Source: Escherichia coli
GTDB taxonomy: Bacteria; Pseudomonadota; Gammaproteobacteria; Enterobacterales; Enterobacteriaceae
Assembly (NCBI RefSeq): GCF_030384885.1
Contig: NZ_CP128615.1
Length of the DNA stretch: 64,000 bases
Strand: one strand, 5' to 3'
A program made the translations under genes and the position numbers. The notes under the pieces are model-generated. The model saw nothing but the letters and a program-made list of their open reading frames with translations, ran no database searches and was not told the DNA's origin. Shown in pieces: positions 4,213 to 46,595 of this stretch; position 1 is the first letter of the stretch, and each line of letters begins with the position of its first letter.

Positions 4213-5525
4213 TTACTGATGCAGTGAAGACCTTCCCGCATCCTGACTCACACAGCGATCGACCTTTTGTGTCCTGCCCTGGACCCGTCGGTTGCCGGAA
4301 GCGCCTTCATGCGAGGCATCTCCTCACCGATGCGCGTGACTCAAGAAGGGCCTGACGGCTTGTCTCGTTACTGTCCTGTCCGGGTTATCTGTCTGGAGAT
4401 TCAACTCTGTTTCCTCACAGGAGCTCTGTCATGGTTGATAAAGTTACCGAAGCTGCCGTTGTGGGTGGCGTGGATACACATAAAGATTTGCACGTTGCCG
4501 CTGTCGTAGATCAGAACAATAAAGTCCTTGGGACTCAGTATTTCTCCACAACACGACAAGGTTACCGGCAGATGCTGGCATGGATGACCTCGTTTGGGAC
4601 ATTAAAGCGAATTGGTGTTGAGTGCACAGGTACCTATGGTTCCGGTTTGCTTCGTTATTTTCAGAACGCCGGGTTAGAAGTTCTTGAGGTGACTGCTCCA
4701 GACCGGATGGAGCGACGCAAACGGGGTAAAAGTGACACAATTGATGCTGAATGTGCCGCTCATGCAGCATTCTCAGGCATCAGGACAGTTACTCCCAAAA
4801 CGCGTGATGGCATGATTGAGTCCCTGCGGGTATTAAAAACTTGCCGAAAAACAGCAATATCAGCCCGCAGAGTCGCTCTCCAGATTATCCATTCAAATAT
4901 TATCTCTGCCCCGGATGAATTACGTGAACAGCTCAGAAATATGACGCGCATGCAGCTCATCAGGACCCTGGGTTCCTGGAGACCTGATGCCAGTGAATAC
5001 CGCAATGTAACCAACGTTTATCGCATTTCATTAAAGTCCCTTGCCCGACGCTATCTCGAGTTACATGACGAAATCGCTGATCTGGATGTCATGATTGCGG
5101 CAATTGTCGACGAGTTGGCACCTGAGCTGATTAAACGTAATGCTATCGGATACGAAAGCGCTTCACAGTTGCTGATCACTGCCGGAGACAATCCTCAACG
5201 GTTAAGATCAGAATCAGGATTTGCGGCACTGTGTGGTGTCAGCCCGGTCCCCGTTTCTTCTGGAAAAACGAACCGTTACCGACTTAATCGTGGTGGAGAT
5301 CGTGCTGCAAATAGTGCACTTCACATCATCGCCATCGGACGCTTACGAACTGACGCAAAAACAAAGGAATATGTCGCCAGGCGTGTAGCCGAAGGACATA
5401 CAAAAATGGAAGCGATACGCTGTCTAAAGCGATATATCTCCCGCGAAGTTTACACGTTACTGCGCAATCAAAACAGGCGGATCAACAGTATCCCGATAAC
5501 AGCTTGACTCTTAGAAGGGCGTCCA
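4150..5525 (+). mobile_element. IS110-family insertion sequence nested inside the IS3-family orfB
   Basis: About 1.38 kb insert between HSD and QGSQY codons of the IS3 orfB; encodes an IS110-type transposase; no obvious terminal inverted repeats, as usual for this family. Boundaries approximate. Confidence 0.6.
4431..5507 (+). CDS. IS110-family transposase
   Basis: 358 aa, N-terminus MVDKVTEAAVVGGVDTHKDLHVAAVVD... (DEDD-type RuvC-like fold family signature). Confidence 0.85.
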   Translation: MVDKVTEAAVVGGVDTHKDLHVAAVVDQNNKVLGTQYFSTTRQGYRQMLAWMTSFGTLKRIGVECTGTYGSGLLRYFQNAGLEVLEVTAPDRMERRKRGKSDTIDAECAAHAAFSGIRTVTPKTRDGMIESLRVLKTCRKTAISARRVALQIIHSNIISAPDELREQLRNMTRMQLIRTLGSWRPDASEYRNVTNVYRISLKSLARRYLELHDEIADLDVMIAAIVDELAPELIKRNAIGYESASQLLITAGDNPQRLRSESGFAALCGVSPVPVSSGKTNRYRLNRGGDRAANSALHIIAIGRLRTDAKTKEYVARRVAEGHTKMEAIRCLKRYISREVYTLLRNQNRRINSIPITA

Positions 5526-5589
5526 GGGCAGTCAGTATGGCAGTGATGACTGGCAGCGGTTCTGCCGGGCCAATAATCTGGTACCGAGC

Positions 5590-5802
5590 ATGAGCCGTCG
5601 CGGCAACTGCTGGGATAATGCAGTGGCAGAATCGTTCTTCAGTTCACTCAAAAAAGAGCGCATCAGGAAGCGGATATACAAAACCCGGGACATGGCCCGG
5701 GCGGATATTTTCGATTATATTGAAGTGTTCTACAACCGGGCCCGGCGCCACAGTCATCTCGGCGGCGTCAGCCCGGAGGCCTTCGAAAAGGCCTCGCAGT
5801 GA
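5590..5802 (+). pseudogene. IS3-family transposase OrfB, 3' part (frame open from about 5527: GSQY...SMSRRGNCWDNAVAESFF)
   Basis: C-terminal DDE-region motifs of IS3 transposases resume immediately after the IS110 insert. Confidence 0.75.
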
Positions 5803-19833: not shown

Positions 19834-20427
19834 TTAATTTTTTTTACCGTCTTCAGGCACAAGCTTGAAGGCGCGATAGTAGTTTTTAGATTCGATCATG
19901 CCGAAAGGATGCAAATCCCTTCCGCTATATTCACCCGGATAGAAAAGCACTAATGGCGTGCTACCCATAACGTCTTGCAGAGCACTAAGTAACTCATGTC
20001 CTCGGATAAGAGGCCACGCACTGCCTAAGCCTGACAGCAACACAAACTCAAGTTCTGATGGCTTATATTTGTCCGCGATATACCTTGCCACTTTCTCTTG
20101 GCTCAGAGGCCCGGCTAGTGTTTTTCGAAGGCCATCAACACCGACTTGCAATTCACGCTGGCAAGCTCGGTCGAAAAGGCCTCGCTCCTCAAGCATATCT
20201 ATCAAGACTTCAAAAATATTGAGATGGACAAAGCGGTAACCACGCTTGTTGAGTTTTTCGTCAACGTGCTTAATGTGCTCTCGTACAAGCAGTTCATACT
20301 TGGCTGGATAGTCAAATACCCAAAATCCAATTTCATTGCCCAAGCCATCGTTTTTCAAAAACTTAGGGCTTTCAATTCGTTCCAGTATCAGATCAAGCCT
20401 GGTCTGAAGAGCCTTCATATTGTGCAC
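19834..20427 (-). CDS. brxB: BREX protein BrxB (DUF1788)
   Basis: 197 aa; overlaps brxA by 13 bp; size and position as in type 1 BREX. Confidence 0.8.
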   Translation of the reverse strand: MHNMKALQTRLDLILERIESPKFLKNDGLGNEIGFWVFDYPAKYELLVREHIKHVDEKLNKRGYRFVHLNIFEVLIDMLEERGLFDRACQRELQVGVDGLRKTLAGPLSQEKVARYIADKYKPSELEFVLLSGLGSAWPLIRGHELLSALQDVMGSTPLVLFYPGEYSGRDLHPFGMIESKNYYRAFKLVPEDGKKN

Positions 20428-21014
20428 TCCATTACCTCAATCAAATCTTCCCGGCCCAGACGAACTAACCAGTCTTTAACTTCTGGCATTAGGTAAACAG
20501 GTTGTATTTTCTTTGTCCTGCTATCACTCAGGTAGCCACTATCAACCAGTGCCTTAATTGCGTTGTTACCCATTTTTTTGACAGTTGAGTCAGAAAAACC
20601 GCCAAGCTCAGCATATGCCCGCACTCTCGTGTCATAAAACTCAGACCATGCATCAGCGGTTAAAGAGGGTTTATAGGTGCGACGAGCTTCGGCTAAGGTA
20701 AGTCGCATAAAATAAGCGACAACCGGAGAATGAATGAGTAATGACATCATCAGCATTTGGACATAGGCACGTTCACTCGCGGCTAAAAGATCAGTCATAA
20801 ACTCATCACCCAGGCCTTCAATACGCCAACGGATTGTTCTGGCATAACGAATAGCCGTCTGACCGGATTTTTTCTGAAGAACATTTTGCTCAACGATCAG
20901 CGACTTCCACTCATCTTCTGGAAGTTTTTTCAATAGCGATTCTGCGATTATTCTAGATTCAGTTATCAATAAACTGCCTCCGATAAGATCGCCTAAATAT
21001 TCTTTTATATTCAT
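20415..21014 (-). CDS. brxA: BREX protein BrxA (DUF1819)
   Basis: 199 aa; first structural gene of the BREX block. Confidence 0.8.
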   Translation of the reverse strand: MNIKEYLGDLIGGSLLITESRIIAESLLKKLPEDEWKSLIVEQNVLQKKSGQTAIRYARTIRWRIEGLGDEFMTDLLAASERAYVQMLMMSLLIHSPVVAYFMRLTLAEARRTYKPSLTADAWSEFYDTRVRAYAELGGFSDSTVKKMGNNAIKALVDSGYLSDSRTKKIQPVYLMPEVKDWLVRLGREDLIEVMECTI

Positions 21015-21950: not shown

Positions 21951-22269
21951 TTAAAACTAGGAAGCCATCGATTGAATGCCATCAAGCAACCTACTTTTTT
22001 TCATTAGGTATCATAGTATCAACAAGTCGTCTTGTTGGCTATAAAAATTGGCTTGACGTTGTTCGAATGTTTCTTTTCTGGCCTTGATAGAAGCTCACGC
22101 TGGAATGCCAACTGACGCAATTCATTCTCTCGAACACGCCTAGCAACTTCTGCCTGGGCTGGTAGCTGATCTTGACCCTCCATCTCCGAACAGCTTTTGT
22201 ATCTTAAGTTAACGATGTCCGCTGCCGCCGGTATTCCCTCGGGGAGTGATATCCCAGCGCGCTGTGCGG

Positions 22270-22545
22270 GTGGCTTCCATTTCCATCAGATGTCCTTCCT
22301 GCTCCGCTACTGAAGGCGTGGTGCGTAACGGCAAAAGCACTGCCGGACATCAGCGCTATCTCTGCTCTCACTGCCGTAAAACATGGCAACTACAGTTCAC
22401 TTACACCGCCTCTCAGCCCGGTACGCACCAGAAAATCATTGATATGGCCATGAATGGCGTTGGATGCCGGGCAACCGCCCGCATTATGGGCGTTGGCCTC
22501 AACACGATTTTACGTCACTTAAAAAACTCAGACCGCAGTCGGTAA
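22270..22545 (+). CDS. insA: IS1 InsA
   Basis: [43 protein letters not shown]...; track ORF 22246 start extends beyond the IS1 fragment and is not used. Confidence 0.85.
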
Positions 22546-22967
22546 CCTCACGCATACAACCGGGCAGTGACGTCATTGTTTGCGCGGAAATGGACGAACA
22601 GTGGGGTTATGTCGGCGCTAAATCACGCCAGCGCTGGTTGTTTTACGCGTATGACAGGATACGGAGGACGGTTGTGGCGCACGTATTCGGTGAACGCACG
22701 TTGTCCACGCTGGAGCGTCTTCTGGGCCTGCTGTCGGCCTTTGAGGTCGTGGTATGGATGACGGATGGCTGGCCGCTTTATGAATCACGCCTGAAGGGAG
22801 AACTGCACGTTATCAGCAAGCGATATAAGCAGCGCATTGAGCGGCATAACCTGAATCTGAGGCAGCATCTGTCAAGGCTGGGCAGGAAGTCACTGTCGTT
22901 CTCAAAATCGGTGGCGCTGCATGACAAAGTCATCGGGCATTATCTGAACATAAAACACTATCAGTAA
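22464..22967 (+). CDS. insB: IS1 InsB (expressed as InsAB' by frameshifting)
   Basis: 167 aa [27 protein letters not shown]... Confidence 0.85.
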
Positions 22968-28665: not shown

Positions 28666-31627
28666 GTTTTCCGGGCATCCGTAAGGGCCGAAACTTCCCG
28701 TCTTCCAGTCTGCGGCTCTGCCGCCAGACGTAATCGCCGGTTAGGTTGATGTGCTCCCAGCCCAGCGGCGACAGGAATTGCAGCAGCTCGCCGTCCACCG
28801 GCTTGCCGGCCTCGACCAACCCCTGGGTGGCGCGTTCCAGGTACACCGTGTTCCACAGCACGATAGCCGCCGTCACCAGGTTGAGGCCGCTGGCCCGGTA
28901 GCGCTGCTGCTCGAAGCTCCGATCCCTGATTTCCCCAAGGCGGTTGAAGAACACCGCCCTGGCCAGCGAGTTGCGCGCCTCACCTTTGTTCAGGCCGGCA
29001 TGCACGCGGCGGCGCAGTTCAACACTTTGCAGCCAGTCCAGGATGAACAGCGTGCGCTCGATCCGGCCCAGCTCGCGCAGGGCCACGGCCAGTCCGTTCT
29101 GGCGCGGGTAGCTGCCGAGCTTGCGCAGCATCAGCGAGGCGGTGACGGTGCCCTGCTTGATCGAGCTGGCCAGGCGCAGGATGTCGTCCCAGTGGGCACG
29201 CACGTGCTTGATGTTCAGGGTGCCGCCGATCAGCGGGCGCAACGTCGGGTAGGCTTGCACGCCCTGCGGCACGTACAGCTTGGTTTCGCCGAGGTCGCGG
29301 ATGCGCGGCGCGAAGCGGAAGCCTAGCAGGTGCATCAGGGCAAAGACGTGATCGGTGAAGCCGGCCGTGTCGGTGTAGTGCTCCTCGATCCGCAGGTCGG
29401 ACTCGTGGTACAGCAGGCCGTCGAGCACATAGGTGGAATCGCGGACGCCGACATTCACCACGCGGGTGCTGAACGGCGCGTACTGGTCGGAGATATGGGT
29501 ATAGAACAGCCGTCCCGGCTCGCTACCGTACTTCGGGTTGACGTGCCCGGTGCTCTCGCCCCGGCCACCCGCGCGGAAGCGCTGGCCATCGGAGGATGAG
29601 GTCGTGCCGTCGCCCCAGTGGGCGGCAAAGGCGTGGCGATACTGGTGGTTGACCAGCTCGGCCAAGGCCGCCGAATAGGTTTCGTCGCGGATGTGCCAGG
29701 CTTGCAGCCAGGACAGCTTGGCGTAGGTCAGGCCGGGGCTCGACTCGGCCATCTTGGTCAGCCCGAGGTTGATCGCATCACCGAGGATTGCGGACAGCAG
29801 CAACGTCCTGTCTTTGGCCTCGGCCCCGTCCTTCAAGTGGGTGAAGTGGCGGCTGAAGCCCGTCCAGTCGTCCACGTCCATCAGCAGTTCGGTGATCTTG
29901 ATGCGCGGCAGTAACTGGCTGGTTTGGTCGATCAGCGCCTGCGCCCGATCCGGCACCGCCGCATCCAGCGGGGTGATTTTCAGCCCTGACTCGGTGAGGA
30001 TGGCATCGGGCAGCTCGTTGTCCTTGGCCAGGCGGGTGACGGTGGCCAACTGCTCGTCCAGCAGCTGCAAACGCTCTTCCAGGTACTGGTCGCTGTTCGG
30101 GTTGATCGCCAGGGGCAGGGCCTGCTCGCGCTTGAGTGCGGCGAACTTCTCGGCCGGCAGCAGGTAGTCGTCGAAGTCGCGGAACTGCCGCGAGCCCTTG
30201 ACCCAGATGTCGCCGGAGCGCAGGGCGTTCTTCAGCTCGGACAGGGCGCAGATTTCGTAGAATTTCCGGTCGAGGCCTTCCGGGGTGATCACCAGCGGCT
30301 TCCAGCGCGGCTTGATGAAGGCCGTGGGTGCATCGGCCGGCACCTTGCGCAGGTTGTCGGCGTTCATCTCACGCAGGGTCTGCACGGCTGCCAGCACGCC
30401 TTGCGCGGCCGGCGCGGCGCGCAGTTCCAGCACCTCCAGCAAGGCCGGCGTGTAACGGCGCAGGGTGGCGAAGTTCTCGCCGACCAGGTGCAGGTGGTCG
30501 AAGCCTTCCGGCCGGGCCAGCAGCTCGGCCTCGCTGACGCTCTCGGTGAACTCGTCCCAGGGAATCACCGCCTCGATGGCGGCATAGGGGTCGCTGCCGC
30601 TTTCCTTCGCTTCCAGCAGCGCCTGGCCGATCCTGGAGTACAGGCGCACCTTGTCGTTGATCGCCTTGCCCTGCTTCTGGAACTGCTGCTGATGCTTGTG
30701 CTTCGCGCCGCTGAACAGCTTGACCAGGATGCGGTCATGCAGATCGACCAGCTCATCGATCACGGTCGCGGTGCTCTCCAGCACCACGGCGGCCAGGGTC
30801 GCGTAGCGGCGCTGCGGCTCGAACTTACCGAGGTCTTTGGGCGTCATCTGCCCACCCTCGCGGGCCAGCTTGAGCAGGCGGTTCTGGTGGATGTGCCGGC
30901 CCAGGCCTTCGGGCAAGTCCACCAACTGAAATGTCTTCAGCCGCTCGATGTGTTCCAGCATGTGCCGAGAGTTGGGTTTCAGCGGTGCCTGGCGCAGCCA
31001 GGTCAACCAGGTGATGCTGCTGCCGGCCTTGAGCTTCAACAGCTCGTCCAGCTTGGCCCGATGCGAGTCCGTGAGTGGTTCGACCAGGGCGCGGTAGACC
31101 CGCCGATTGGCTCGCGCAATGGCTTCCGAGCAGGCCCGGTCAATCACGCTCAGCGCCGGCAGGATGCGTCGTTTCTGCCGTAGGCTCTCCAGGGCCTGAC
31201 CGGCCAGCAGCAAGCCTTTGTCGGTCTGCTGGGCCAGCTCGGTTAGCTCGCGCACCAGGGCGCGGAAGTCGGACAGGCCGAACGGGGCCAGTTGCAGGTA
31301 GGTGCGCAGTTCCTGGGCATGCTCGCGACGGGTCACGTCGCGCTCGCCGTACTTTGCCCAGCTCGCCGGCTCGGCCTGGACTTGCTTCGCCACCCACAGG
31401 ATGACCGGCTCGGGCAGCTCGCTGTCGGTTCCCAGCGCGTAACCGGGGTAGCGCAGCAGGCAGAGCTGCACGGCGAAGCCGAGGCGGTTGGCGTCGCCGC
31501 GTCGCTGGCGGATCAGCGACAGGTCGGAGTCGTTGAAGGTGTAGTAGCGGATCAGGTCATCCTGGCTTTCCGGCAGCGCAAGCAGGGTGTCCCGCTCCGT
31601 GGCCGAGAGGATCAAGCGACGCGGCAT
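28661..31627 (-). CDS. tnpA: Tn21-subgroup Tn3-family transposase TnpA (Tn1721)
   Basis: 988 aa [31 protein letters not shown]... ending ...LTGDYVWRQ... Confidence 0.9.
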
Positions 31628-32499: not shown

Positions 32500-34077
32500 A
32501 TGCGCCAGAATTTACCAGTGACGGGTCGAAACTTAGAACTCCCAAAAGATGCCAATATTCTTTCGACTACCTCCCCTCAAAGCCATATCACGTACGTTAA
32601 TCCTGACTTCATTAAAATCAGTGGTTTCACTGAGGAAGAACTATTAGGCCAGCCTCACAACATCGTAAGACACCCAGATATGCCGCCTGCTGCATTTGAG
32701 CATATGTGGAGTACATTAAAATCTGGCCGCTCATGGATGGGGCTAGTAAAAAATCGCTGTAAAAATGGCGACCACTATTGGGTAAGTGCTTATGTAACGC
32801 CAATAGCTAAGAATGGTTCGATTGTTGAATACCAGTCTGTAAGGACCAAGCCTGAACCTGAGCAGGTTTTGGCTGCGGAAAAATTATATGCTCAATTGAG
32901 AAGCGGGAAGGCCGCGAGGCCGAAATTGGCTGCTAGCTTTTCCGTGAAAATACTCTTGCTCATATGGGGTAGTATTATATCAAGCGCAATGGCTGCCGGC
33001 ATGCTTACTGATACATCAATAAGCAGCTTATTGTTAGCCACTTTAATGTCAGGAAGCTTAAGCTCTGTTAGTGTTTTGGCTATTCTCTCTCCTCTTGGAA
33101 GACTGGTTGAAAGAGCCAGGAATATTTCCAATAACCCATTAAGTCAATCCCTCTACACTGGGCGCACCGATGAGTTTGGCCAAATAGAGTTTGCTTTACG
33201 AATGATGCAAGCTGAAACAGGCGCCATAGTAGGTCGCATAGGTGATGCATCAAATCGGCTTAGCGAACACACCCGAGGCCTACTAAAGGATATTGAGTCA
33301 AGCAATGTACTTACAGTTGAGCAGCAGGCAGAGACAGATCAAATAGCAACGGCAGTAAACCAAATGGTGGCAAGCATTCAAGAGGTTGCGAGCAATGCAC
33401 AGCATGCTGCAGATGCGGCCGGAAGAGCAGACACTGAGACGGCATCTGGCCAGCGTCTGGTAGCCCACACAAGCCAGTCAATCACTGCCCTTGAAGGTGA
33501 AATTAGGCAAGCCACTCAGGTTATTCATGAGCTTGAAGGTCAAAGTAACGAGATATCAAAAGTTCTTGACGTTATACGAGGGATCGCCGAGCAAACGAAT
33601 TTGTTGGCACTCAACGCAGCAATTGAGGCCGCGCGTGCTGGTGAGCAGGGGCGTGGTTTTGCTGTTGTCGCCGATGAGGTTCGCAGTCTTGCTGCTCGCA
33701 CACAGCAATCGACAACGGATATTCAAAGCATGATCAGCGCTCTACAAGAGCGAGCGCAATCCGCTGTTACAGTCATGGAGCAAAGTAGTCGGCAAGCGCA
33801 CACGAGTGTAGCTCACGCAGAGGAAGCAGCTACAGCTCTTGATGGAATTGGCCAACGCGTTAACGAAATTACCGACATGAACGCGCAAATAGCGACTGCG
33901 GTCGAGCAGCAGGGAGCAGTAAGTGAAGACATAAACCGCAGTATTATCAATATACGCGATGCTGCTGATACCAATGTACAGACCGGGCAGAATAATTTGC
34001 AAAGTGCGAAATCTGTCGCTCAGTTAACTAGCGCTCTGAGCGAACTGGCAAAACAGTTTTGGGAAAAACGAGGATAA
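32500..34077 (+). CDS. Methyl-accepting chemotaxis-like protein (Tn1721 orfI / mcp)
   Basis: 525 aa with PAS-like N-terminus, two hydrophobic segments and a C-terminal MCP signalling domain ([30 protein letters not shown]). Confidence 0.8.
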
Positions 34078-39462: not shown

Positions 39463-40316
39463 GATTTCAGTTTATTACGGATTACCGTGGCTCTCTCTCA
39501 CGTTCACGCATATGTCGTTTGATGGGCGTAACAGATCGTGGTTTACGTGCATGGAAACGCCGTCCTCCATCACTGCGCCAGCGTCGTGATCTTATACTTC
39601 TAGCGCATATACGTGAGCAGCATCGGTTGTGTTTGGGGAGCTATGGTAGGCCGCGTATGACAGAAGAGTTGAAAGCGCTGGGCCTGCAGGTTGGGCAGCG
39701 TCGGGTTGGACGTTTGATGCGCCAGAATAACATTACAGTTGTTCGAACGCGTAAATTCAAACGGACAACGGATAGTCATCATACCTTCAACATTGCACCG
39801 AACCTATTAAAACAAGACTTTAGCGCAAGCGCACCCAACCAGAAATGGGCAGGCGATATCACTTATGTTTGGACCAGAGAAGGATGGGTCTATCTTGCTG
39901 TTATCCTTGACCTGTATTCCCGTCGCGTGATTGGCTGGGCAACAGGTGATCGATTAAAGCAGGATCTTGCATTAAGGGCACTGAATATGGCGTTGGCTTT
40001 ACGCAAACCACCACCGGGTTGTATTCAACACACAGACCGTGGGAGCCAATATTGCGCTCATGAATATCAAAAGCTACTGCTCAAACATCAATTGCTGCCG
40101 TCCATGAGCGGGAAAGGCAATTGTTTTGATAACTCCGCAGTAGAAAGCTTCTTTAAATCATTAAAGGCTGAGTTGATTTGGCGCAGACACTGGCAAACAA
40201 GGCGAGATATTGAGATTGCAATCTTCGAATATATAAATGGCTTTTATAATCCACGCCGAAGACATTCAACACTCGGCTGGAAATCGCCGGTGGCATTTGA
40301 GAAAAAAGCCGCTTAA
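39459..40316 (+). CDS. IS1133 transposase OrfB (DDE)
   Basis: 285 aa with DDE-region motifs (WAGDITYVWT...DLYSRRVIGW...HTDRGSQY). Confidence 0.85.
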   Translation: MRFQFITDYRGSLSRSRICRLMGVTDRGLRAWKRRPPSLRQRRDLILLAHIREQHRLCLGSYGRPRMTEELKALGLQVGQRRVGRLMRQNNITVVRTRKFKRTTDSHHTFNIAPNLLKQDFSASAPNQKWAGDITYVWTREGWVYLAVILDLYSRRVIGWATGDRLKQDLALRALNMALALRKPPPGCIQHTDRGSQYCAHEYQKLLLKHQLLPSMSGKGNCFDNSAVESFFKSLKAELIWRRHWQTRRDIEIAIFEYINGFYNPRRRHSTLGWKSPVAFEKKAA

Positions 40317-40422
40317 AATGAGAGATAGACCGGAACACAACCGGTGCAAGTCCATAGCAACTCGTTTCTTTTCGCAGGTTGAGCCACCTCCGCGCTTCAT
40401 CAGAAAACTGAAGGAACCTCCA

Positions 40423-41226
40423 TTGAATCGAACTAATATTTTTTTTGGTGAATCGCATTCTGACTGGTTGCCTGTCAGAGGCGGAGAATCTGGTGATTTT
40501 GTTTTTCGACGTGGTGACGGGCATGCCTTCGCGAAAATCGCACCTGCTTCCCGCCGCGGTGAGCTCGCTGGAGAGCGTGACCGCCTCATTTGGCTCAAAG
40601 GTCGAGGTGTGGCTTGCCCCGAGGTGATCAACTGGCAGGAGGAACAGGAGGGTGCATGCTTGGTGATAACGGCAATTCCGGGAGTACCGGCGGCTGATCT
40701 GTCTGGAGCGGATTTGCTCAAAGCGTGGCCGTCAATGGGGCAGCAACTTGGCGCTGTTCACAGCCTATCGGTTGATCAATGTCCGTTTGAGCGCAGGCTG
40801 TCGCGAATGTTCGGACGCGCCGTTGATGTGGTGTCCCGCAATGCCGTCAATCCCGACTTCTTACCGGACGAGGACAAGAGTACGCCGCAGCTCGATCTTT
40901 TGGCTCGTGTCGAACGAGAGCTACCGGTGCGGCTCGACCAAGAGCGCACCGATATGGTTGTTTGCCATGGTGATCCCTGCATGCCGAACTTCATGGTGGA
41001 CCCTAAAACTCTTCAATGCACGGGTCTGATCGACCTTGGGCGGCTCGGAACAGCAGATCGCTATGCCGATTTGGCACTCATGATTGCTAACGCCGAAGAG
41101 AACTGGGCAGCGCCAGATGAAGCAGAGCGCGCCTTCGCTGTCCTATTCAATGTATTGGGGATCGAAGCCCCCGACCGCGAACGCCTTGCCTTCTATCTGC
41201 GATTGGACCCTCTGACTTGGGGTTGA
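40423..41226 (+). CDS. strA: Aminoglycoside 3''-phosphotransferase APH(3'')-Ib
   Basis: TTG start; NRTNIFFGESHSDWLPVRGGESGDFVFRRGDGHAFAKIAP...; 267 aa; stop overlaps strB start. Confidence 0.95.
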   Translation: MNRTNIFFGESHSDWLPVRGGESGDFVFRRGDGHAFAKIAPASRRGELAGERDRLIWLKGRGVACPEVINWQEEQEGACLVITAIPGVPAADLSGADLLKAWPSMGQQLGAVHSLSVDQCPFERRLSRMFGRAVDVVSRNAVNPDFLPDEDKSTPQLDLLARVERELPVRLDQERTDMVVCHGDPCMPNFMVDPKTLQCTGLIDLGRLGTADRYADLALMIANAEENWAAPDEAERAFAVLFNVLGIEAPDRERLAFYLRLDPLTWG

Positions 41227-42062
41227 TGTTCATGCCGCCTGTTTTTCCTGCTCATTGGCACGTTTCGCAACCTGTTCTCATTGCGGACACCTTTTCCAGC
41301 CTCGTTTGGAAAGTTTCATTGCCAGACGGGACTCCTGCAATCGTCAAGGGATTGAAACCTATAGAAGACATTGCTGATGAACTGCGCGGGGCCGACTATC
41401 TGGTATGGCGCAATGGGAGGGGAGCAGTCCGGTTGCTCGGTCGTGAGAACAATCTGATGTTGCTCGAATATGCCGGGGAGCGAATGCTCTCTCACATCGT
41501 TGCCGAGCACGGCGACTACCAGGCGACCGAAATTGCAGCGGAACTAATGGCGAAGCTGTATGCCGCATCTGAGGAACCCCTGCCTTCTGCCCTTCTCCCG
41601 ATCCGGGATCGCTTTGCAGCTTTGTTTCAGCGGGCGCGCGATGATCAAAACGCAGGTTGTCAAACTGACTACGTCCACGCGGCGATTATAGCCGATCAAA
41701 TGATGAGCAATGCCTCGGAACTGCGTGGGCTACATGGCGATCTGCATCATGAAAACATCATGTTCTCCAGTCGCGGCTGGCTGGTGATAGATCCCGTCGG
41801 TCTGGTCGGTGAAGTGGGCTTTGGCGCCGCCAATATGTTCTACGATCCGGCTGACAGAGACGACCTTTGTCTCGATCCTAGACGCATTGCACAGATGGCG
41901 GACGCATTCTCTCGTGCGCTGGACGTCGATCCGCGTCGCCTGCTCGACCAGGCGTACGCTTATGGGTGCCTTTCCGCAGCTTGGAACGCGGATGGAGAAG
42001 AGGAGCAACGCGATCTAGCTATCGCGGCCGCGATCAAGCAGGTGCGACAGACGTCATACTAG
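41226..42062 (+). CDS. strB: Aminoglycoside 6-phosphotransferase APH(6)-Id
   Basis: MFMPPVFPAHWHVSQPVLIADTFSSLVWKVSLPDGTPAIVKG...; 278 aa. Confidence 0.95.
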   Translation: MFMPPVFPAHWHVSQPVLIADTFSSLVWKVSLPDGTPAIVKGLKPIEDIADELRGADYLVWRNGRGAVRLLGRENNLMLLEYAGERMLSHIVAEHGDYQATEIAAELMAKLYAASEEPLPSALLPIRDRFAALFQRARDDQNAGCQTDYVHAAIIADQMMSNASELRGLHGDLHHENIMFSSRGWLVIDPVGLVGEVGFGAANMFYDPADRDDLCLDPRRIAQMADAFSRALDVDPRRLLDQAYAYGCLSAAWNADGEEEQRDLAIAAAIKQVRQTSY

Positions 42063-42131
42063 ATATCAAGCGACTTCTCCTATCCCCTGGGAACACATCA
42101 ATCTTACCGGAGAATATCGTTGGCCAAAGCC

Positions 42132-43070
42132 TTAGCGTAGGATTTCGCCCTCTCCCGCAAACGACCCCATAGCCTCCGCAACCTGACCATCGTAGTCACG
42201 CAGCGTCAGTGAACCCCCGAACAGCTGTTTTACCCGGTACATCGCCGTTTCCGCTATCGAGCGACGGTTGTAATCTGTTGTCCATTTCCACCGCGCATTA
42301 CTCCCGGTCATTCGCTGATTAGCCACTGCACGGTTACGGTCTGCATATTCACCGGGCCAGTAACCCGCACCTTTTCGGGGAGGGATAAGCGCGCTGATTT
42401 TCTTACGCCGCAGTTCATCGTGACAGAGCCGGGTGTCGTAAGCGCCGTCTGCCGATGCTGCCCTGATTTTTCTGTGAGTCTGCCGGATAAGACCCGGGAA
42501 GGCTTCTGAGTCCGTCACATTGTTCAGCGACAGGTCTGCACAGATGATTTCATGTGTGTTGCTGTCAACTGCCAGATGCAACTTTCGCCATATACGACGG
42601 CGTTCCTGGCCATGCTTTTTGACTTTCCACTCGCCTTCACCAAAGACCTTCAGCCCGGTGGAATCAATCACCAGATGCGCGATTTCACCCCGGGTGAACG
42701 TTTTGAAACTGACGTTAACCGACTTTGCCCGCCTGCTGACACAGCTGTAATCCGGGCAGCGTAGCGGAACGTTCATCAGAGAAAAAATGGAATCAATAAA
42801 GCCCTGCGCAGCGCGCAGGGTCAGCCTGAATACGCGTTTAATGACCAGCACAGTCGTGATGGCAAGGTCAGAATAGCGCTGAGGTCTGCCTCGTGAAGAA
42901 GGTGTTGCTGACTCATACCAGGCCTGAATAGCTTCATCATCCAGCCAGAAAGTTATGGAGCCACGGTTGATGAGGGCTTTATTGTAGGTGGGCCAGTTGG
43001 TTATTTTGAACTTTTGCTTTGCCACGGAACGGTCTGCGTTGTCGGGAAGATGCGTGATCTGATCCTTCAA
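42132..43070 (-). pseudogene. IS903 transposase, C-terminus replaced by Tn5393 insertion
   Basis: 312-aa ORF identical in most of its length to the other IS903 transposases but ending ...AEAMGSFAGEGEILR inside the Tn5393 IR. Confidence 0.8.
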
Positions 43071-43102
43071 CTCAGCAAAAGTTCGATTTATTCAACAAAG
43101 CC
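42169..43102 (-). mobile_element. IS903 left-end 934 bp (remainder of the IS903 copy split by Tn5393)
   Basis: Includes transposase ORF 42132-43070 whose last codons now read into the Tn5393 inverted repeat; terminal IR ends at 43102. Confidence 0.85.
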
Positions 43103-43406
43103 CATTCAGTCCTCAATTTGTGCATTTTTTAAACGAAAAAAGGGTGTCTAATACGGTGAAATCATAGTATTACCAAAGTAATAAATAAAAAGTTATTTAA
43201 ATCAGTAATTTAGATTTGATTTGTAATACCTGGGTAATACCGCAGCATGGCTAAATTTTGTTTTTTTTCTTTTAAATCAGTGCGATAGCGTGATTTATCA
43301 CGCTGCGTTAGGTGTATAGCAGGTTAAGGGATAAAAAATCATCTTTTTTTGGTAGGGCGATCTCCGTAGGTTAAGGGGCATTTGGCTAAAAAGCGTCCTA
43401 TTCTTT

Positions 43407-43430
43407 GATGGTCATGCTTGCATGACCATC
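43407..43430. promoter_or_regulatory. Perfect 11-bp-arm palindrome GATGGTCATGC-TT-GCATGACCATC (operator-like)
   Basis: Read directly from sequence; lies just upstream of an array of 11-bp direct repeats. Confidence 0.4.
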
Positions 43431-43440
43431 TGAGCAACCA

Positions 43441-43592
43441 AAAACTACAGATAAACTACAGATAAACTACAAAAAACGTTTTGCCTTAGTGTTGTAAGAC
43501 TACAAATAGACTACAATAAAACTACAAATAAACTACAAAAAACGTGACAGACTACAAATAGACTACAATAAAACTACAGATAAACTACAAAA
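43441..43592. repeat. Eleven 11-bp direct repeats (consensus about RACTACARWTA) in three clusters; centromere- or iteron-like
   Basis: aaactacagat x2, aaactacaaaa, gactacaaata, gactacaataa, aaactacaaata ... in helical phase (11-bp period). Confidence 0.7.
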
Positions 43593-43650
43593 CTCGATTG
43601 ACCCCTTCTTACGAGTGTTGTAGAGTCATTTTCATACAACGGAGGGGGTT

Positions 43651-43830
43651 ATGAATAAACCAGCAGATCTGAAACCCCGCAACTTATCGGCTGCTGTCAG
43701 ATTGCGCCTAAATGAAATCGAGAACTGGCTGGACAGAGGGCTAACGCGGCATGAAATTGCTGAAATCCTCGACAGCGAATACAGCTTTTCGGTAACAGCC
43801 AAAGGGCTTGAGATGGATGGCACTGTATAG
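43651..43830 (+). CDS. Small hypothetical DNA-binding-like protein (59 aa)
   Basis: GGAGGGGG RBS then MNKPADLKPRNLSAAVRLRLNEIENWLDRGLTRHEIAEILDSEYSF...; below the 60-aa cutoff of the ORF track. Confidence 0.35.
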   Translation: MNKPADLKPRNLSAAVRLRLNEIENWLDRGLTRHEIAEILDSEYSFSVTAKGLEMDGTV

Positions 43831-44124
43831 AACGCGGCAAAACCGAAAAAATGTATTGCACAATACGCATGATAAGAGTAGCGCGAAGGGTGCAGCGGAA
43901 AGTGTATTGCACAATACACAACCGTCTGAGCCTGAAGTGCAGGAAAGTAAAAAAGCAGAGAGTCCCGGCATTATTGATAAAGAATTCTTCAAGAAAATCG
44001 GTGAGAATTTCGACCCTAAGAAGTTCAACAAAAAATTCTGAGGTGATTTATGAAAGTAGCGGTAATTAATTACAGTGGCAGTGTTCGTAAAACCTTAATT
44101 TCATCTTACCTGTTAGCCCCGCGC

Positions 44125-45181
44125 GGCTTTGTTGAATAAATCAGATTTCGGGTAAGTCTCCCCCGTAGCGGGTTGTGTTTTCAGGCAATACGCACGCTTT
44201 CAGGCATACCTGCTTTCGTCATTTTGTTCAGCGCTCGTACCAGGGCCATAGCCTCTGCAACCTGACCATCGTAGTCACGCAGTGTCAGTGAACCTCCGAA
44301 CAGCTGTTTTACCCGGTACATCGCCGTTTCCGCTATCGAGCGACGGTTGTAATCTGTTGTCCATTTCCACCGCGCATTACTCCCGGTCAGCCGCTGATTC
44401 GCAACAGCACGGTTACGGTCTGCATATTCACCGGGCCAGTAACCCGCGCCTTTTCGGGGCGGGATAAGCGCGCTGATTTTCTTACGCCGCAGTTCATCGT
44501 GACAGAGTTGGGTGTCGTAAGCGCCGTCTGCCGATGCTGCCCTGATTTTTCTGTGAGTCTGCCGGATAAGACCCGGGAAGGCTTCTGAGTCCGTCACATT
44601 GTTCAGCGACAGGTTTGCACAGATGATTTCATGTGTGTTGCTGTCAACTGCCAGATGCAACTTTCGCCATATACGACGGCGTTCCTGGCCATGCTTTTTG
44701 ACTTTCCATTCGCCTTCACCAAAGACCTTCAGCCCGGTGGAATCAATCACCAGATGCGCGATTTCACCCCGGGTGAACGTTTTGAAACTGACATTAACCG
44801 ACTTTGCGCGCTTGCTGACACTGGTGTAATCCGGGCAGCGCAACGGAACATTCATCAGTGTAAAAATGGAATCAATAAAACCCTGTGCAGCCCGCAGGGT
44901 CAACCTGAACACGCGTTTAATGACCAGAACGGTGGTGATGGCGAGATCAGAATAGCGCTGAGGTCTTCCCCGTGATGAAGGCGTTGCCGACTCATACCAG
45001 GCCTGAATAGCTTCATCATCCAGCCAGAAAGTTATGGAGCCACGGTTGATGAGGGCTTTATTGTAGGTGGGCCAGTTGGTTATTTTGAACTTTTGCTTTG
45101 CCACGGAATGGTCTGCGTTGTCGGGAAGATGCGTGATCTGATCCTTCAACTCAGCAAAAGTTCGATTTATTCAACAAAGCC
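44125..45181 (-). mobile_element. IS903, intact copy, no target-site duplication
   Basis: Terminal IRs present; transposase 44181-45149; flanking 9-mers differ. Confidence 0.9.
44181..45149 (-). CDS. IS903 transposase
   Basis: 322 aa [33 protein letters not shown]... Confidence 0.9.
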   Translation of the reverse strand: MKDQITHLPDNADHSVAKQKFKITNWPTYNKALINRGSITFWLDDEAIQAWYESATPSSRGRPQRYSDLAITTVLVIKRVFRLTLRAAQGFIDSIFTLMNVPLRCPDYTSVSKRAKSVNVSFKTFTRGEIAHLVIDSTGLKVFGEGEWKVKKHGQERRRIWRKLHLAVDSNTHEIICANLSLNNVTDSEAFPGLIRQTHRKIRAASADGAYDTQLCHDELRRKKISALIPPRKGAGYWPGEYADRNRAVANQRLTGSNARWKWTTDYNRRSIAETAMYRVKQLFGGSLTLRDYDGQVAEAMALVRALNKMTKAGMPESVRIA

Positions 45182-45673
45182 GTCTGTGTTGTAAAATGGC
45201 GCCGAAAGCCCGGCGTAGCCGGTTGCCGGGCTATAAATTCTGCCACCCTACCCCCTGCCCTGATTAGCCTTAACTCGCGAACAGCAATGAAGAAGTCAAA
45301 GTAATCCCTTTTAACCCCGGTGAGCGGGCTTTACGGCGTTTACGACGTAAAGGGCGTGATTTCCGGGGCCTAAGCGGCGGCAGCTTGCTGCTGACGCTTA
45401 GGGGGATGTTCATCAACTATTTCAGCGACACCAGGGAACTTAACACGGTAGCTGCAAAGCCCTAATCCCGCTCACCGCCACGCAGCTGCCGTACGTCCCC
45501 CACGGGGGTGCGCAGTGCTGCGCGCGGGAACGGCGGCCCGTCTGCGGGACGCGGCGCCGTACTGCGCGTTAGCGGCCGCACGCGGCCGGTTACGGGGGAC
45601 ACTCCGCCATACGACCAGCGACCCGCTGAGCTGCACAATCCACAGATAACACAAGCTACATACATGTCGATAT

Positions 45674-46245
45674 GGGAATCGGCCCACCTTGCCGGGCGCC
45701 GGTGCCGTGTGGAAATCCGCCCACCTTGCCGCGCGCCGGTGCCGTGTGGGAATCCGCCCACCTTGCCGCGCGCCGGTGCCGTGTGGGAATCCGCCCACCT
45801 TGCCGGGCGCCGGTGCTGTGTGGAAATCCGCCCACCTTACCGGGCGCCGGTGCTGTGTGGAAATCCGCCCATCTTGCCGGGCGCCGGTGCCGTGTGGGAA
45901 TCCGCCCACCTTACCGGGCGCCGGTGCCGTGTGGGAATCCGCCCACCTTACCGGGCGCCGGTGCCGTGTGGGAATCCGCCCACCTTACCGGGCGCCGGTG
46001 CTGTGTGGAAATCCGCCCACCTTGCCGCGCGCCGGTGCCGTGTGGGAATCCGCCCACCTTGCCGCGCGCCGGTGCCGTGTGGGAATCCGCCCACCTTGCC
46101 GGGCGCCGGTGCTGTGTGGAAATCCGCCCACCTTACCGGGCGCCGGTGCTGTGTGGAAATCCGCCCATCTTGCCGGGCGCCGGTGCCGTGTGGGAATCCG
46201 CCCACCTTACCGGGCGCCGGTGCTGTGTGGAAATCCGCCCATCTT
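45674..46245. repeat. Tandem array of about 15.5 copies of a 37-bp repeat (GAATCCGCCCACCTTGCCGCGCGCCGGTGCCGTGTGG with point variants)
   Basis: Contiguous head-to-tail repeats without spacers; downstream of a truncated repA paralog, i.e. in the position of an incC/incA-type iteron array. Confidence 0.85.
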
Positions 46246-46292: not shown

Positions 46293-46595
46293 TCAGACGG
46301 GATTTTGCTTATCAATTATTGAGAACAGAAATTTTCCTGAATCATCAATACTATACTTAGCAAGTAAAGGTGTTTTCTCATTTATCTGCTTGAGTGCAGG
46401 ATCAAGGAAAGATCGTTTCAACTCTGCCAAGTTCTTCTGCTGGGATTCCGGTAAGACGAAACGGTCATTTAACCAAGCATGAGTAGTAACCCATAAGCCT
46501 GAAGATTTGAATTGAGCAAGACTTTCATAAAGGCGGATCGTCCGGGGATTTCGAAGACTGCCACAATCGCGGAGCGAGTAGGTGGTGAACTGGTT
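46293..46595 (-). pseudogene. C-terminal fragment of a second Rep_3-family RepA, truncated by IS1
   Basis: Minus-strand translation ...YSLRDCGSLRNPRTIRLYESLAQFKSSGLWVTTHAWLNDRFVLPESQQ... aligns with the C-terminus of the intact RepA at 54177-55043. Confidence 0.6.

What the first reader, a model, noticed from the sequence alone, without database searches (positions are those of the whole stretch)
43407..44124. Palindrome plus eleven 11-bp direct repeats, a small putative DNA-binding gene and paired operator-like palindromes
A perfect 24-bp palindrome is followed by eleven helically phased 11-bp repeats in three clusters. Next come a 59-aa ORF with an RBS and, downstream of it, two copies of TGTATTGCACAATAC. 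This is the layout of a plasmid centromere or iteron control region with its binding protein. The next ORF (MKVAVINYSGSV...) is cut after 25 codons by IS903, so the module is probably broken.
Basis: seen in the sequence. Interest (0 to 1): 0.5.

Follow-up and report, generated by a model that had tools for sequence, protein, structure and literature searches.

The report
Broken IncN plasmid oriT–stbA remnant
This is a well-known piece of IncN resistance plasmids (the transfer origin, the 11-bp repeat array bound by the StbA stability protein, and the start of the stb operon), stranded between two IS903 copies and with stbA itself frameshifted, so it is ordinary; the only new point is that the two "operator-like" palindromes lie inside the stbA reading frame and appear to be selected as DNA sites.

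Summary
The sequence features are real. Window 43103-44124 is a 1,026-bp IncN fragment between two IS903 copies, and more than 1,100 sequenced plasmids carry it. It holds:
- the whole oriT, whose nick region matches the pKM101 oriT oligonucleotide;
- a conserved inverted repeat;
- eleven 11-bp ACTACA repeats (3+4+4) ending at a sigma-70 promoter;
- stbA;
- the first 25 codons of stbB.

The "59-aa gene" is not a gene of its own. It is the 128-aa stbA cut by a 4-bp GATG duplication (43812-43815), which none of 1,145 plasmid or 302 E. coli records carries. The cut falls inside the predicted recognition helix. The two TGTATTGCACAATAC palindromes lie inside intact stbA (codons VLHNT), not downstream of it.

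The closest studied system is R388 StbA/stbS: an HTH protein on 11-bp-phased repeats beside oriT that represses its own promoter, positions the plasmid and restrains conjugation. The ParR/ParG and iteron readings are not supported.

The side finding: the palindromes keep identical codons across lineages whose neighbouring codons have diverged. One lineage shows a symmetric double change. The motif recurs just upstream of a SprT-like gene in three lineages. This suggests an undescribed operator embedded in the coding sequence.

The parts
43085..43102 (.). Terminal inverted repeat of the left IS903 copy; boundary of the IncN fragment
   Evidence: Sequence gatttattcaacaaagcc. The transposase ORF 42132-43070 lies on the minus strand. 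Homologous records annotate it as an IS5-family/IS903B transposase.
43103..43650 (+). Complete IncN traK-stbA intergenic region (oriT). It begins exactly at the complement (CAT) of the traK start codon.
   Evidence: Alignments with R46 and with an intact IncN plasmid. In L004 traK lies at 5270-5686 on the minus strand.
43167..43241 (.). GTATTAC / TAATACC repeat units on the traK side of nic. These are putative sites for the relaxosome accessory protein (TraK, the TrwA counterpart); this is an inference.
   Evidence: Inverted pair I1. TAATACC occurs twice, 11 bp apart. Conserved in R46, and analogous TAATAC units occur in L011.
43287..43304 (+). nic-proximal recognition hairpin AGCGTGAT-TT-ATCACGCT for the MOBF relaxase
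   Evidence: Matches the pKM101 oriT35/oriT57 oligonucleotides used for TraI binding and structure, with 1 difference inside the hairpin. Coordinates.
43305..43326 (+). nic region GCGTTAGGTGT/ATAGCAGGTTA. The nick falls between 43315 and 43316 on the + strand, so the repeats and stbA enter a recipient first.
   Evidence: The pKM101 pre-nic oligonucleotides end in ...GCGTTAGGTGT and the post-nic oligonucleotide starts ATAGCAGG. Position found.
43407..43430 (.). Inverted repeat with 11-bp arms and a 2-nt spacer. It is a conserved architectural element of the oriT and its function is unknown.
   Evidence: The core TCATGCTTGCATGA is invariant and the outer arm positions covary in R46, IncN3 and pMB9877_2. 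R388 has a 10-bp-arm inverted repeat at the same distance from nic: 91 nt there, 92 nt here.
43442..43592 (+). stbS-like array of eleven 11-bp direct repeats (core ACTACA) in clusters of 3+4+4; inferred binding sites of StbA
   Evidence: Intact relatives have 12 repeats, 4+4+4. The repeat core tracks the StbA N-domain type. The R388 equivalent is shown to bind StbA.
43598..43626 (+). Putative stbA promoter TTGACC-17-TAGAGT, abutting the last repeat. An inverted repeat-core copy (TTGTAG) overlaps the -10 hexamer.
   Evidence: It is a consensus match only, 9 of 12 positions. The position is equivalent to R388 PstbA within the stbDRs.
43651..44041 (+). stbA pseudogene. The intact form is 128 aa (WP_001039464); here it is frameshifted.
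   Evidence: NCBIfam StbA_2, E = 7.8e-61 for the repaired protein. Homology of the N-domain to the R388 StbA HTH domain.
43651..43830 (+). The 59-aa ORF: 55 native StbA residues plus 4 out-of-frame residues
   Evidence: It matches only profile positions 1-50 of 123 in StbA_2.
43812..43815 (+). 4-bp tandem duplication (GATG) that causes the frameshift
   Evidence: Absent from all 1,145 PLSDB records and all 302 E. coli records that match this stretch; the best identity is 95.6%, i.e. 87 of 91 positions.
43852..43866 (.). Palindrome copy 1, TGTATTGCACAATAC, inside stbA (codons VLHNT, residues 67-71 of the intact protein)
43903..43918 (.). Palindrome copy 2, TGTATTGCACAATACA, inside stbA (residues 84-88), 51 bp after copy 1
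44050..44124 (+). First 25 codons of stbB (ParA-like ATPase), cut by IS903. The P-loop reads GSVRKT instead of GSVGKT.
   Evidence: NCBIfam StbB, profile positions 1-25 of 233, E = 1.5e-8. Alignment with intact stbB.
44125..44142 (.). Terminal inverted repeat of the right IS903 copy
   Evidence: Sequence GGCTTTGTTGAATAAATC. Transposase ORF 44181-45149 on the minus strand.

Best explanation
Window 43103-44124 is a stranded piece of an IncN conjugative plasmid backbone. It now sits between two directly oriented IS903 copies in the resistance region of a plasmid whose closest relatives include IncR-typed plasmids. In order, it carries:
- the origin of transfer (putative accessory-protein sites, relaxase hairpin, nic);
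- a conserved inverted repeat;
- the stbS-type array of eleven 11-bp direct repeats;
- the stbA promoter;
- stbA;
- the first 25 codons of stbB.

In intact plasmids the N-terminal helix-turn-helix domain of StbA binds the phased repeats on one face of the DNA. The complex represses the stb promoter, positions the plasmid on the nucleoid for segregation and restrains conjugation. StbB, the ParA-like ATPase, counteracts the restraint on conjugation. These functions are shown for R388 and inferred here.

In this window the trans-acting half is dead. A private 4-bp duplication truncates StbA after residue 55, in the middle of the predicted recognition helix. stbB and stbC are removed by IS903. What can still work are the cis sites. 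The oriT could be nicked and mobilised by a co-resident IncN helper. The repeat array could bind or titrate StbA of the same specificity type supplied in trans.
For: Identity of the fragment:
- It matches 1,875 plasmid records; 1,129 of them cover at least 80% of it. The feature under the match is annotated stbA.
- The repaired protein hits NCBIfam StbA_2 (equivalog) at E = 7.8e-61. The 25-aa ORF hits StbB positions 1-25.
- Intact conjugative IncN plasmids (MOBF, MPF_T) carry traI-traJ-traK, then this intergenic region, then stbA-stbB-stbC.

oriT:
- The window carries the pKM101 oriT57 sequence used for TraI binding and nicking, with a few differences upstream of nic. The pre-nic and post-nic oligonucleotides place nic at GGTGT/ATAGC.

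Homology to R388 StbA:
- A profile of IncN StbAs has PDB 7pc1 (StbA 1-75) as its top hit, E = 0.0035.
- hhalign against R388 StbA gives 77% probability, E = 2e-5, over residues 11-63, which cover all three helices.

Same anatomy in R388:
- nic, then an inverted repeat 91 nt further on, then two sets of five repeats with 11-bp period, then stbA and stbB.
- Binding of StbA to those repeats and their roles in stability and conjugation are experimental results.

Protein and site specificity covary:
- Type-A N-domains (window, L004, L010, L011) go with ACTACA repeats.
- Type-B N-domains (R46, IncN3) go with TACATCA/TACACCA repeats.
- Meanwhile nic, the StbA C-terminus and stbB stay about 93-95% identical.

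Decay in this window:
- The frameshift is absent from every other record.
- It falls before the invariant LYRxR of helix alpha-3, which R388 work identifies as the recognition helix.
Against: - No experiment has shown that this StbA variant binds the ACTACA repeats. The link rests on homology, position and covariation across only three or four lineages.
- The sequence similarity to R388 StbA is weak (29% identity over 52 columns; single-sequence PDB search found nothing).
- The promoter is a consensus match only, and such matches are not enriched in this region.
- The 4-bp duplication could be an assembly error, in which case stbA would be intact here.
- Whether the stranded oriT is actually used for mobilisation is not known.
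Confidence: 0.9

Rival explanations
1. An autonomous small-regulator module. The 59-aa protein is a functional DNA-binding protein that acts on the upstream repeats and on the two downstream palindromes as its operators.
For: The ORF has a good ribosome-binding site and start codon. [quoted passage not shown] The R388 StbA(1-75) fragment alone binds DNA and represses.
Against: - The ORF ends at residue 55 plus 4 frameshifted residues. It loses the C-terminal two-thirds of the recognition helix, including the invariant L57, Y58, R59, R61 and R64.
- The truncation is caused by a 4-bp duplication seen in no other of about 1,450 records.
- In all relatives the palindromes are inside the coding sequence.
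- The palindrome variant does not track the StbA N-domain type.
Confidence: 0.03
2. A type Ib or type II plasmid partition centromere, with a ParG- or ParR-like ribbon-helix-helix adaptor and a ParA or ParM motor.
For: Two or three clusters of 11-bp-phased repeats flanking a promoter resemble parC of R1 and the pB171 and pSK41 centromeres. The R388 authors make the same comparison. The downstream gene is a ParA-superfamily ATPase.
Against: - There is no Pfam or NCBIfam match to ParR, ParG or RHH families.
- The fold inferred by homology is a tri-helical HTH related to PadR, not RHH.
- In R388 the ATPase StbB is dispensable for stability and is needed for conjugation instead.
- The locus is part of oriT and the leading region.
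Confidence: 0.04
3. An iteron array that controls replication initiation or copy number.
For: The region holds multiple short direct repeats in clusters, and other IncN replication remnants lie nearby in the window.
Against: - In intact IncN plasmids the array lies between traK and stbA, more than 11 kb from repA.
- IncN iterons are the 37-bp repeats next to repA. These are present separately in the window at 45673-46245.
- No rep gene adjoins the 11-bp array.
Confidence: 0.02

Closest known systems
R388 (IncW) stbS/stbDR-StbA-StbB-StbC system adjacent to oriT (Guynet et al. 2011, PMC3098194; Quebre et al. 2022, bioRxiv 10.1101/2022.04.29.490116; PDB 7PC1)
   Same: - The order is the same: nic, an inverted repeat about 91 nt further on, clustered direct repeats with 11-bp period around the promoter, stbA, then stbB.
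- The N-terminal HTH domain is homologous.
[quoted passage not shown]
- stbB has a deviant Walker A motif.
   Different: - The repeat sequence differs: ACTACA core here, TTGCATCAT in R388.
- There are 11-12 units in three clusters here, 2 x 5 in R388.
- IncN StbA carries 1-4 copies of a 15-17-aa repeat with an embedded DNA palindrome. No counterpart of that motif was seen in the R388 stbA sequence.
- In this window stbA is frameshifted and stbB/stbC are lost.
oriT and stbABC of archetypal IncN plasmids R46/pKM101/pCU1. From memory, not read here: Coupland et al. 1987 described 11-bp direct repeats in the R46 oriT. Paterson et al. 1999 is cited for the role of stb in stability.
   Same: - The backbone position is the same and nic is near-identical.
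- The inverted-repeat core TCATGCTTGCATGA is the same.
- The StbA C-terminus and the stbB start are about 93% identical, and the palindromes are identical.
   Different: The segment from the inverted repeat to the first palindrome, which holds the repeats and the StbA N-domain, is a different allele. R46 repeats have a TACATCA core and its N-domain has a different sequence, although it is homologous. This looks like a swapped specificity cassette. NCBI models this variant separately as StbA_2.
parC/ParR of plasmid R1 and the pB171 and pSK41 ParR centromeres
   Same: Short repeats phased one helical turn apart, in clusters around the operon promoter. They are bound cooperatively by a small autorepressor that also forms the segregation complex (analogy drawn).
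   Different: The protein fold is different (HTH versus RHH). There is no actin-like or dedicated ParA motor requirement. The array is integrated into oriT and linked to control of conjugation.

Membership tests
Stb (StbA/stbS) system of MOBF11-type conjugative plasmids | StbA protein with an N-terminal tri-helical HTH domain homologous to R388 StbA(1-75) | tested here: met
   For the repaired 128-aa sequence: NCBIfam StbA_2, E = 7.8e-61. The IncN StbA profile has 7pc1_A as top hit, E = 0.0035. hhalign against R388 StbA gives probability 77%, E = 2e-5. The similarity is weak but consistent.
Stb (StbA/stbS) system of MOBF11-type conjugative plasmids | An intact, expressible stbA reading frame | tested here: not met
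   A 4-bp duplication at 43812-43815 gives a 59-aa product that lacks most of helix alpha-3. The locus is a pseudogene remnant of a family member, not a working member.
Stb (StbA/stbS) system of MOBF11-type conjugative plasmids | An array of direct repeats with about 11-bp periodicity immediately upstream of and overlapping the stbA promoter | tested here: met
   Eleven units at 43442-43592. The promoter-like site at 43598-43626 abuts the last unit.
Stb (StbA/stbS) system of MOBF11-type conjugative plasmids | Location beside oriT nic, on the leading side, divergent from the relaxosome operon | tested here: met
   nic lies at 43315/43316 on the + strand, 126 bp upstream of the array. traK-traJ-traI are present in intact relatives. 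In the window they are deleted up to the traK start codon.
Stb (StbA/stbS) system of MOBF11-type conjugative plasmids | Downstream stbB (ParA-like, deviant Walker A) and stbC | tested here: not met
   Only stbB codons 1-25 remain, and the P-loop reads GSVRKT instead of GSVGKT. stbC is absent. Both genes are present in intact relatives.
Stb (StbA/stbS) system of MOBF11-type conjugative plasmids | Specific binding of StbA to the repeats, and effects on stability, conjugation and transcription that depend on the repeats | not testable with these tools
   Shown for R388 only. Here it is supported indirectly by covariation between N-domain type and repeat core.
MOBF (IncN/IncW) origin of transfer | Relaxase recognition hairpin followed by the conserved GGTGT/ATAGC nic sequence | tested here: met
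   43287-43326 matches the pKM101 TraI substrates oriT35, oriT22 and oriT57. The hairpin here is perfect.
ParR/ParG-type (RHH) partition adaptor with centromere | Ribbon-helix-helix adaptor protein family membership | tested here: not met
   There are no ParR, ParG or RHH hits in Pfam or NCBIfam at E <= 1. Homology points to an HTH fold instead.
Iteron-type replication control region | Repeats adjacent to and bound by the replicon's Rep protein | tested here: not met
   In R46 the array is more than 11 kb from repA. The IncN iterons are the 37-bp repeats at R46 32528-32749, found in the window at 45673-46245.

The most novel reading that the evidence does not exclude
The TGTATTGCACAATACA palindromes are operator sites embedded in the stbA coding sequence. 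They would be bound by an unidentified dimeric factor, probably plasmid-encoded. The same factor would control the SprT-like metalloprotease gene of IncN plasmids, and the sites bracket stbB-stbC.

Evidence that the DNA, not the peptide, is under selection:
- Every copy in four lineages uses the same codons, GTA TTG CAC AAT ACA. Neighbouring conserved residues share a codon only about 40% of the time (15/15 versus 18/45 for IncN3 against L010).
- In pMB9877_2 all three stbA copies carry a symmetric double change, GGATTGCACAATCC. This changes the peptide to GLHNP. The same variant sits twice upstream of the SprT-like gene.
- The motif lies just upstream of the ribosome-binding site of the SprT-like gene in R46 and IncN3.
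- It also lies 2 nt after the stop codon of the ORF that follows stbC, in the opposite orientation.
- All copies within one plasmid are essentially the same. That favours a shared trans-acting factor over independent hairpins, which would in any case be weak (-1.5 kcal/mol).

No paper in the searchable library contains the motif.
Probability: 0.55. Interest if true: 0.45.

Novelty: already known. Interest (0 to 1): 0.22.

Why it matters
For the finding as given, the value is mainly annotation.
- What looks like a small regulator with operators is a decayed IncN oriT-stbS-stbA remnant that travels with IS903 in more than a thousand resistance plasmids.
- Its surviving cis sites have practical consequences. 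An intact IncN oriT could make an otherwise non-conjugative plasmid mobilisable by IncN helpers. An orphan StbA-binding array could titrate StbA of a co-resident IncN plasmid, which might affect that plasmid's stability and raise its transfer. Both consequences are inferences.

Two by-products are of more general interest.
- The repeat array and the StbA DNA-binding domain appear to be exchanged together as a specificity cassette between otherwise near-identical IncN backbones.
- A palindromic motif is kept at the DNA level inside the part of the reading frame that encodes the poorly conserved C-terminal half of StbA. It is shared with the control region of a SprT-like protease gene. If real, this is a small unrecognised regulon in a clinically important plasmid family, and a clear case of a coding sequence constrained by an overlapping operator.

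Tried and rejected
- Pfam scans of the 59-aa, 128-aa and 25-aa proteins gave only sub-threshold noise such as Clr5 and Ldl_recept_b.
- A single-sequence PDB search gave only a spurious bS20 hit. The profile search was needed to reach 7PC1.
- Paterson et al. 1999 (PMC93686) is not held, so the original R46/pKM101 stb and oriT descriptions could not be read. Statements about Coupland 1987 are from memory.
- The pCU1 and pKM101 relaxase papers do not print the oriT sequence in the main text. A supplement did.
- R388 under accession BR000038 is not in the collection. It was reached through tblastn.
- The genome-contig scan for two ATTGCACAAT cores 20-50 nt apart returned chance matches as far as judged from the listed taxa (not inspected). 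Only the Kluyvera cryocrescens contig, the one hit examined, was a true stbA, and it is the same allele.
- A literature search for the palindrome sequence found no papers.
- Candidate binders of the palindrome that I considered and set aside:
  - StbC has a C-terminal transmembrane helix and no DNA-binding signature.
  - ArdK binds direct repeats at the -35 box in CUP elements, and the palindrome is absent from those regions.
  - LexA does not fit, because the motif is TGT-N10-ACA, not CTGT-N8-ACAG (from my own knowledge).
  - The StbA N-domain does not fit, because the palindrome variant does not track the N-domain type.
  - The RHH-like ORF after stbC is absent from pMB9877_2, which still has the sites.
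- A terminator role for the 43407 inverted repeat was rejected because no T-run follows it on either strand.
Full report
**1. What is in the sequence**

- 43407-43430 is an inverted repeat with 11-bp arms that are perfectly complementary, around a 2-nt spacer TT. That makes 22 of 24 positions, not a strictly perfect palindrome.
- It is followed by eleven 11-bp units with the core ACTACA: 43442-43474 (3 units), 43497-43540 (4) and 43549-43592 (4). A strict degenerate pattern finds 10 of them, against 0.5 expected in the whole 64-kb window.
- A sigma-70-like site, TTGACC-17-TAGAGT (43598-43626), abuts the last unit.
- GGAGG (43641-43645) precedes an ATG at 43651, which opens a 59-aa ORF.
- GTATTGCACAATAC occurs at 43853 and 43904.
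- An ORF starting MKVAVINYSGSV at 44050 runs into the IS903 terminal repeat at 44125.

**2. What it is**

The segment 43103-44124 lies between two IS903 copies in the same orientation. It matches 1,875 plasmid records, and 1,129 of them cover at least 80% of it. The best hits are 99.6% identical, and the annotated feature under the match is "plasmid stabilization protein StbA".

In those records stbA is 387 bp, or 128 aa. The only difference from the window is a 4-bp tandem duplication, GATG, at 43812-43815. So the 59-aa ORF is StbA residues 1-55 plus four out-of-frame residues. The remainder of stbA continues in the +1 frame to 44041.

No other record carries the duplication. This was checked against 1,145 PLSDB records and 302 complete E. 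coli records that match this stretch. The duplication is not in a homopolymer, so it is more likely a real slippage mutation than a typical read error. I cannot prove that.

NCBIfam assigns the repaired protein to StbA_2 (equivalog, E = 7.8e-61). The 59-aa product matches only profile positions 1-50 of 123. The 25-aa ORF matches the N-terminus of StbB. Pfam has nothing.

Intact conjugative IncN plasmids show the full locus. R46 and NZ_CP104375 are examples; the latter has the same stbA allele. The order is relaxase, coupling protein and traK on one strand, then this intergenic region, then stbA-stbB-stbC on the other strand. The window fragment starts exactly at the complement of the traK start codon. 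The entire traK-stbA intergenic region is therefore retained.

**3. It is the origin of transfer**

The oligonucleotides used to study the pKM101 relaxase TraI are oriT57, oriT35 (which ends at the nick) and oriT22 (which starts after it). They align to window 43281-43337 with only a few differences. One of these makes the recognition hairpin AGCGTGAT-TT-ATCACGCT perfect in the window. That places nic between 43315 and 43316 on the + strand.

The relaxase stays on the 5' end and transfer is 5' to 3'. This is established knowledge for MOBF systems. So the repeats, stbA and stbB are the first DNA to enter a recipient. This agrees with the description of stb operons as leading-region genes.

**4. 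How it most likely works**

The nearest experimentally studied system is R388. There, StbA binds two sets of five 9-bp repeats spaced by 2 bp, giving an 11-bp period, around its own promoter. The repeats are needed in cis, and StbA in trans, both for plasmid stability and for restraint of conjugation. StbB, a ParA-like ATPase, is required for conjugation but not for stability. StbA represses PstbA about 50-fold, and represses other promoters too.

The N-terminal 75 residues of R388 StbA form a tri-helical HTH in which alpha-3 (residues 57-69) is the recognition helix. The C-terminal half is disordered and is needed for positioning.

I read the R388 locus directly, and it has the same anatomy as the window. 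The nic hairpin is followed 91 nt later by an inverted repeat with 10-bp arms. Then come the repeat sets with 11-bp spacing, then stbA and stbB. In the window the inverted repeat starts 92 nt after nic.

Homology of the proteins is weak but reproducible. A profile of seven IncN StbAs has PDB 7pc1 (StbA) as its top hit, E = 0.0035. hhalign against full-length R388 StbA gives 77% probability, E = 2e-5, over the three helices.

The strongest internal evidence that the repeats are the StbA sites is covariation. Between the window allele and R46, several parts are about 93-95% identical: the nic region, the core of the inverted repeat, the StbA C-terminus and stbB. The stretch from the inverted repeat to the first palindrome is effectively unalignable.
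- N-domains of the window type (L004, L010, L011, Kluyvera L062) always sit behind ACTACA repeats.
- R46 and IncN3 N-domains sit behind TACATCA/TACACCA repeats.
- R388 sits behind TTGCATCAT.

The DNA-binding domain and its sites therefore look like a cassette that is exchanged as a unit.

Status of each claim:
- Shown here: identity, anatomy, homology, covariation.
- Inferred from R388: binding, autorepression, segregation, control of conjugation.

**5. State of the module in this window**

It is broken in three ways.
- The frameshift falls after M55. By alignment this is inside alpha-3 and before the invariant L57, Y58, R59, R61 and R64. DNA binding by the 59-aa product is unlikely.
- stbB stops at codon 25. 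Its P-loop already reads GSVRKT rather than GSVGKT. This substitution is shared by the identical IS903-flanked copy compared.
- stbC and the whole relaxosome operon are absent.

The array has 11 units here, against 12 (4+4+4) in intact relatives.

The closest matches to the surrounding 20 kb include IncR-typed plasmids. Features annotated under those matches include ParA/ParB-family partition genes, so the host plasmid probably does not depend on this remnant for partition. What plausibly remains active are the cis sites, namely oriT and the StbA-binding array.

**6. The palindromes**

They lie inside intact stbA, as codons GTA TTG CAC AAT ACA (VLHNT). They sit within a 15-17-aa repeat whose copy number varies from 1 to 4 among IncN StbAs.

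Four observations indicate selection on the DNA rather than only on the peptide.
- *Codons are frozen.* For pairs of diverged lineages, identical residues outside the motif use the same codon only about 40% of the time. Inside the motif the figure is 100%. For IncN3 against L010 the counts are 18/45 versus 15/15. For R46 against IncN3 they are 37/70 versus 10/10.
- *A symmetric double change.* In pMB9877_2 (IncN, NZ_CP103467) all three copies read GGATTGCACAATCC. This keeps the dyad but changes the peptide to GLHNP.
- *The motif also occurs outside genes.*
  - It lies directly upstream of the ribosome-binding site of a SprT-like metalloprotease gene in R46 (TGTATTGCACAATACA).
  - It does so in IncN3 too (TGTATTGCGCAATACA, just after a -10-like TATATT).
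  - In pMB9877_2 there are two copies of that plasmid's own variant upstream of the gene.
  - It also lies 2 nt after the stop codon of the ORF downstream of stbC, in inverted orientation, in R46, L004, L007 and L010.
- *Copies within one plasmid are essentially the same.* The 2-nt centre is constant in all stbA copies. As hairpins they would be negligible (-1.5 kcal/mol, z = -0.1).

Together this favours a shared sequence-specific dimeric binder. I could not identify it.
- StbC is a membrane-anchored coiled-coil-like protein.
- ArdK recognises direct repeats at -35 boxes.
- The StbA N-domain type does not track the palindrome variant.
- The RHH-like ORF after stbC is missing from pMB9877_2.

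The motif string is not in any searchable paper. In the window the two copies are orphan sites, because their partner sites and the SprT-like gene are gone.

The high-identity part of the R46/window alignment resumes exactly at the first palindrome. The palindromes may therefore also have served as a recombination joint for the cassette swap. This last point is speculation.

**7. The 24-bp inverted repeat**

Its core TCATGCTTGCATGA is invariant among IncN lineages. The outer arm positions differ and are compensated on both sides:
- window: GATGG...CCATC;
- R46 and IncN3: (G)GTAT...ATAC(C);
- pMB9877_2: ACTT...AAGT.

It forms a stable hairpin as single-stranded DNA. R388 has an unrelated sequence with the same geometry at the same distance from nic. 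It is not a terminator, because no T-run follows it.

The inverted repeat is a conserved oriT element of unknown role. It could be a hairpin on the incoming T-strand or a site for a dimeric protein. I leave this open.

**8. Verdict**

The particulars are wrong. The gene is a frameshifted stbA. The palindromes are intragenic. The family is Stb, not ParR/ParG. The context is oriT, not replication control.

The system is already known, and this instance is a decayed remnant. Interest is low, apart from the embedded-operator lead.

Noticed in passing
window 43852-43866 and 43903-43918; also L002 (R46) 30003-30018 and 22547-22562; L012 8033, 8066, 8114, 9509, 9537; L135 3391-3406: The palindrome TGTATTGCACAATACA embedded in stbA keeps identical codons across diverged lineages. 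One lineage shows a symmetric compensatory variant (GGATTGCACAATCC). The motif recurs just upstream of the ribosome-binding site of a SprT-like protease gene and just after the ORF downstream of stbC. It is a likely undescribed operator, and the binder is unknown.
   Followed up: partly
window 43407-43430; compare L002, L007, L011 and L013 1249-1271: The oriT inverted repeat has an invariant core and outer arm positions that change in a compensated way between IncN lineages. R388 has a different inverted repeat at the same distance (91-92 nt) from nic. Its function is unknown.
   Followed up: partly
window 43431-43851 versus L002 (R46) about 20360-20730: The structure is mosaic. The repeats plus the StbA N-terminal domain are a divergent allele inside an otherwise 93-95% identical IncN backbone. 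This looks like exchange of a DNA-binding-domain and binding-site specificity cassette. The right-hand boundary falls at the first palindrome.
   Followed up: partly
window 45673-46245 and 46293-46430: A 37-bp tandem repeat of 15.5 copies matches the IncN iterons next to repA in R46 (32528-32749). It is followed by what looks like the 3' end of a Rep gene on the minus strand, just before an IS1-type ORF. This is a second IncN remnant, on the other side of the right IS903 copy.
   Followed up: partly
window 44086-44088: The stbB remnant has Arg instead of Gly in the Walker A motif (GSVRKT versus GSVGKT in intact plasmids). An IS903-flanked copy in another plasmid is identical here, so this substitution is older than the private stbA frameshift.
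   Followed up: no
window 43167-43241: GTATTAC/TAATACC units lie on the traK side of nic, two of them 11 bp apart. They are conserved in R46, and analogous TAATAC units occur in pMB9877_2. They are plausibly sites for the TraK (TrwA-like) accessory protein.
   Followed up: no
window 43475-43500 versus 43593-43626: The spacer between repeat clusters 1 and 2 (CGTTTTGCCTTAGTGTTGTAAGAC) resembles a shortened copy of the promoter segment (CGATTGACC...GAGTGTTGTAGAGT). This suggests that the array grew by duplication of a unit made of repeats plus promoter.
   Followed up: no
window 40237-43102: The streptomycin resistance genes aph(3'')-Ib and aph(6)-Id lie directly upstream. Next comes the left IS903 copy, whose transposase ORF has a different C-terminal end from the right copy (312 versus 322 aa), so the left copy is altered at its far end. 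No 9-bp target duplication flanks the IncN fragment.
   Followed up: no
L004 7925-8269 (and R46 22202-22546): The 114-aa ORF after stbC has an N-terminal basic stretch followed by a short strand-helix pattern that looks like a ribbon-helix-helix. It has no Pfam hit. The palindrome sits 2 nt after its stop codon.
   Followed up: no
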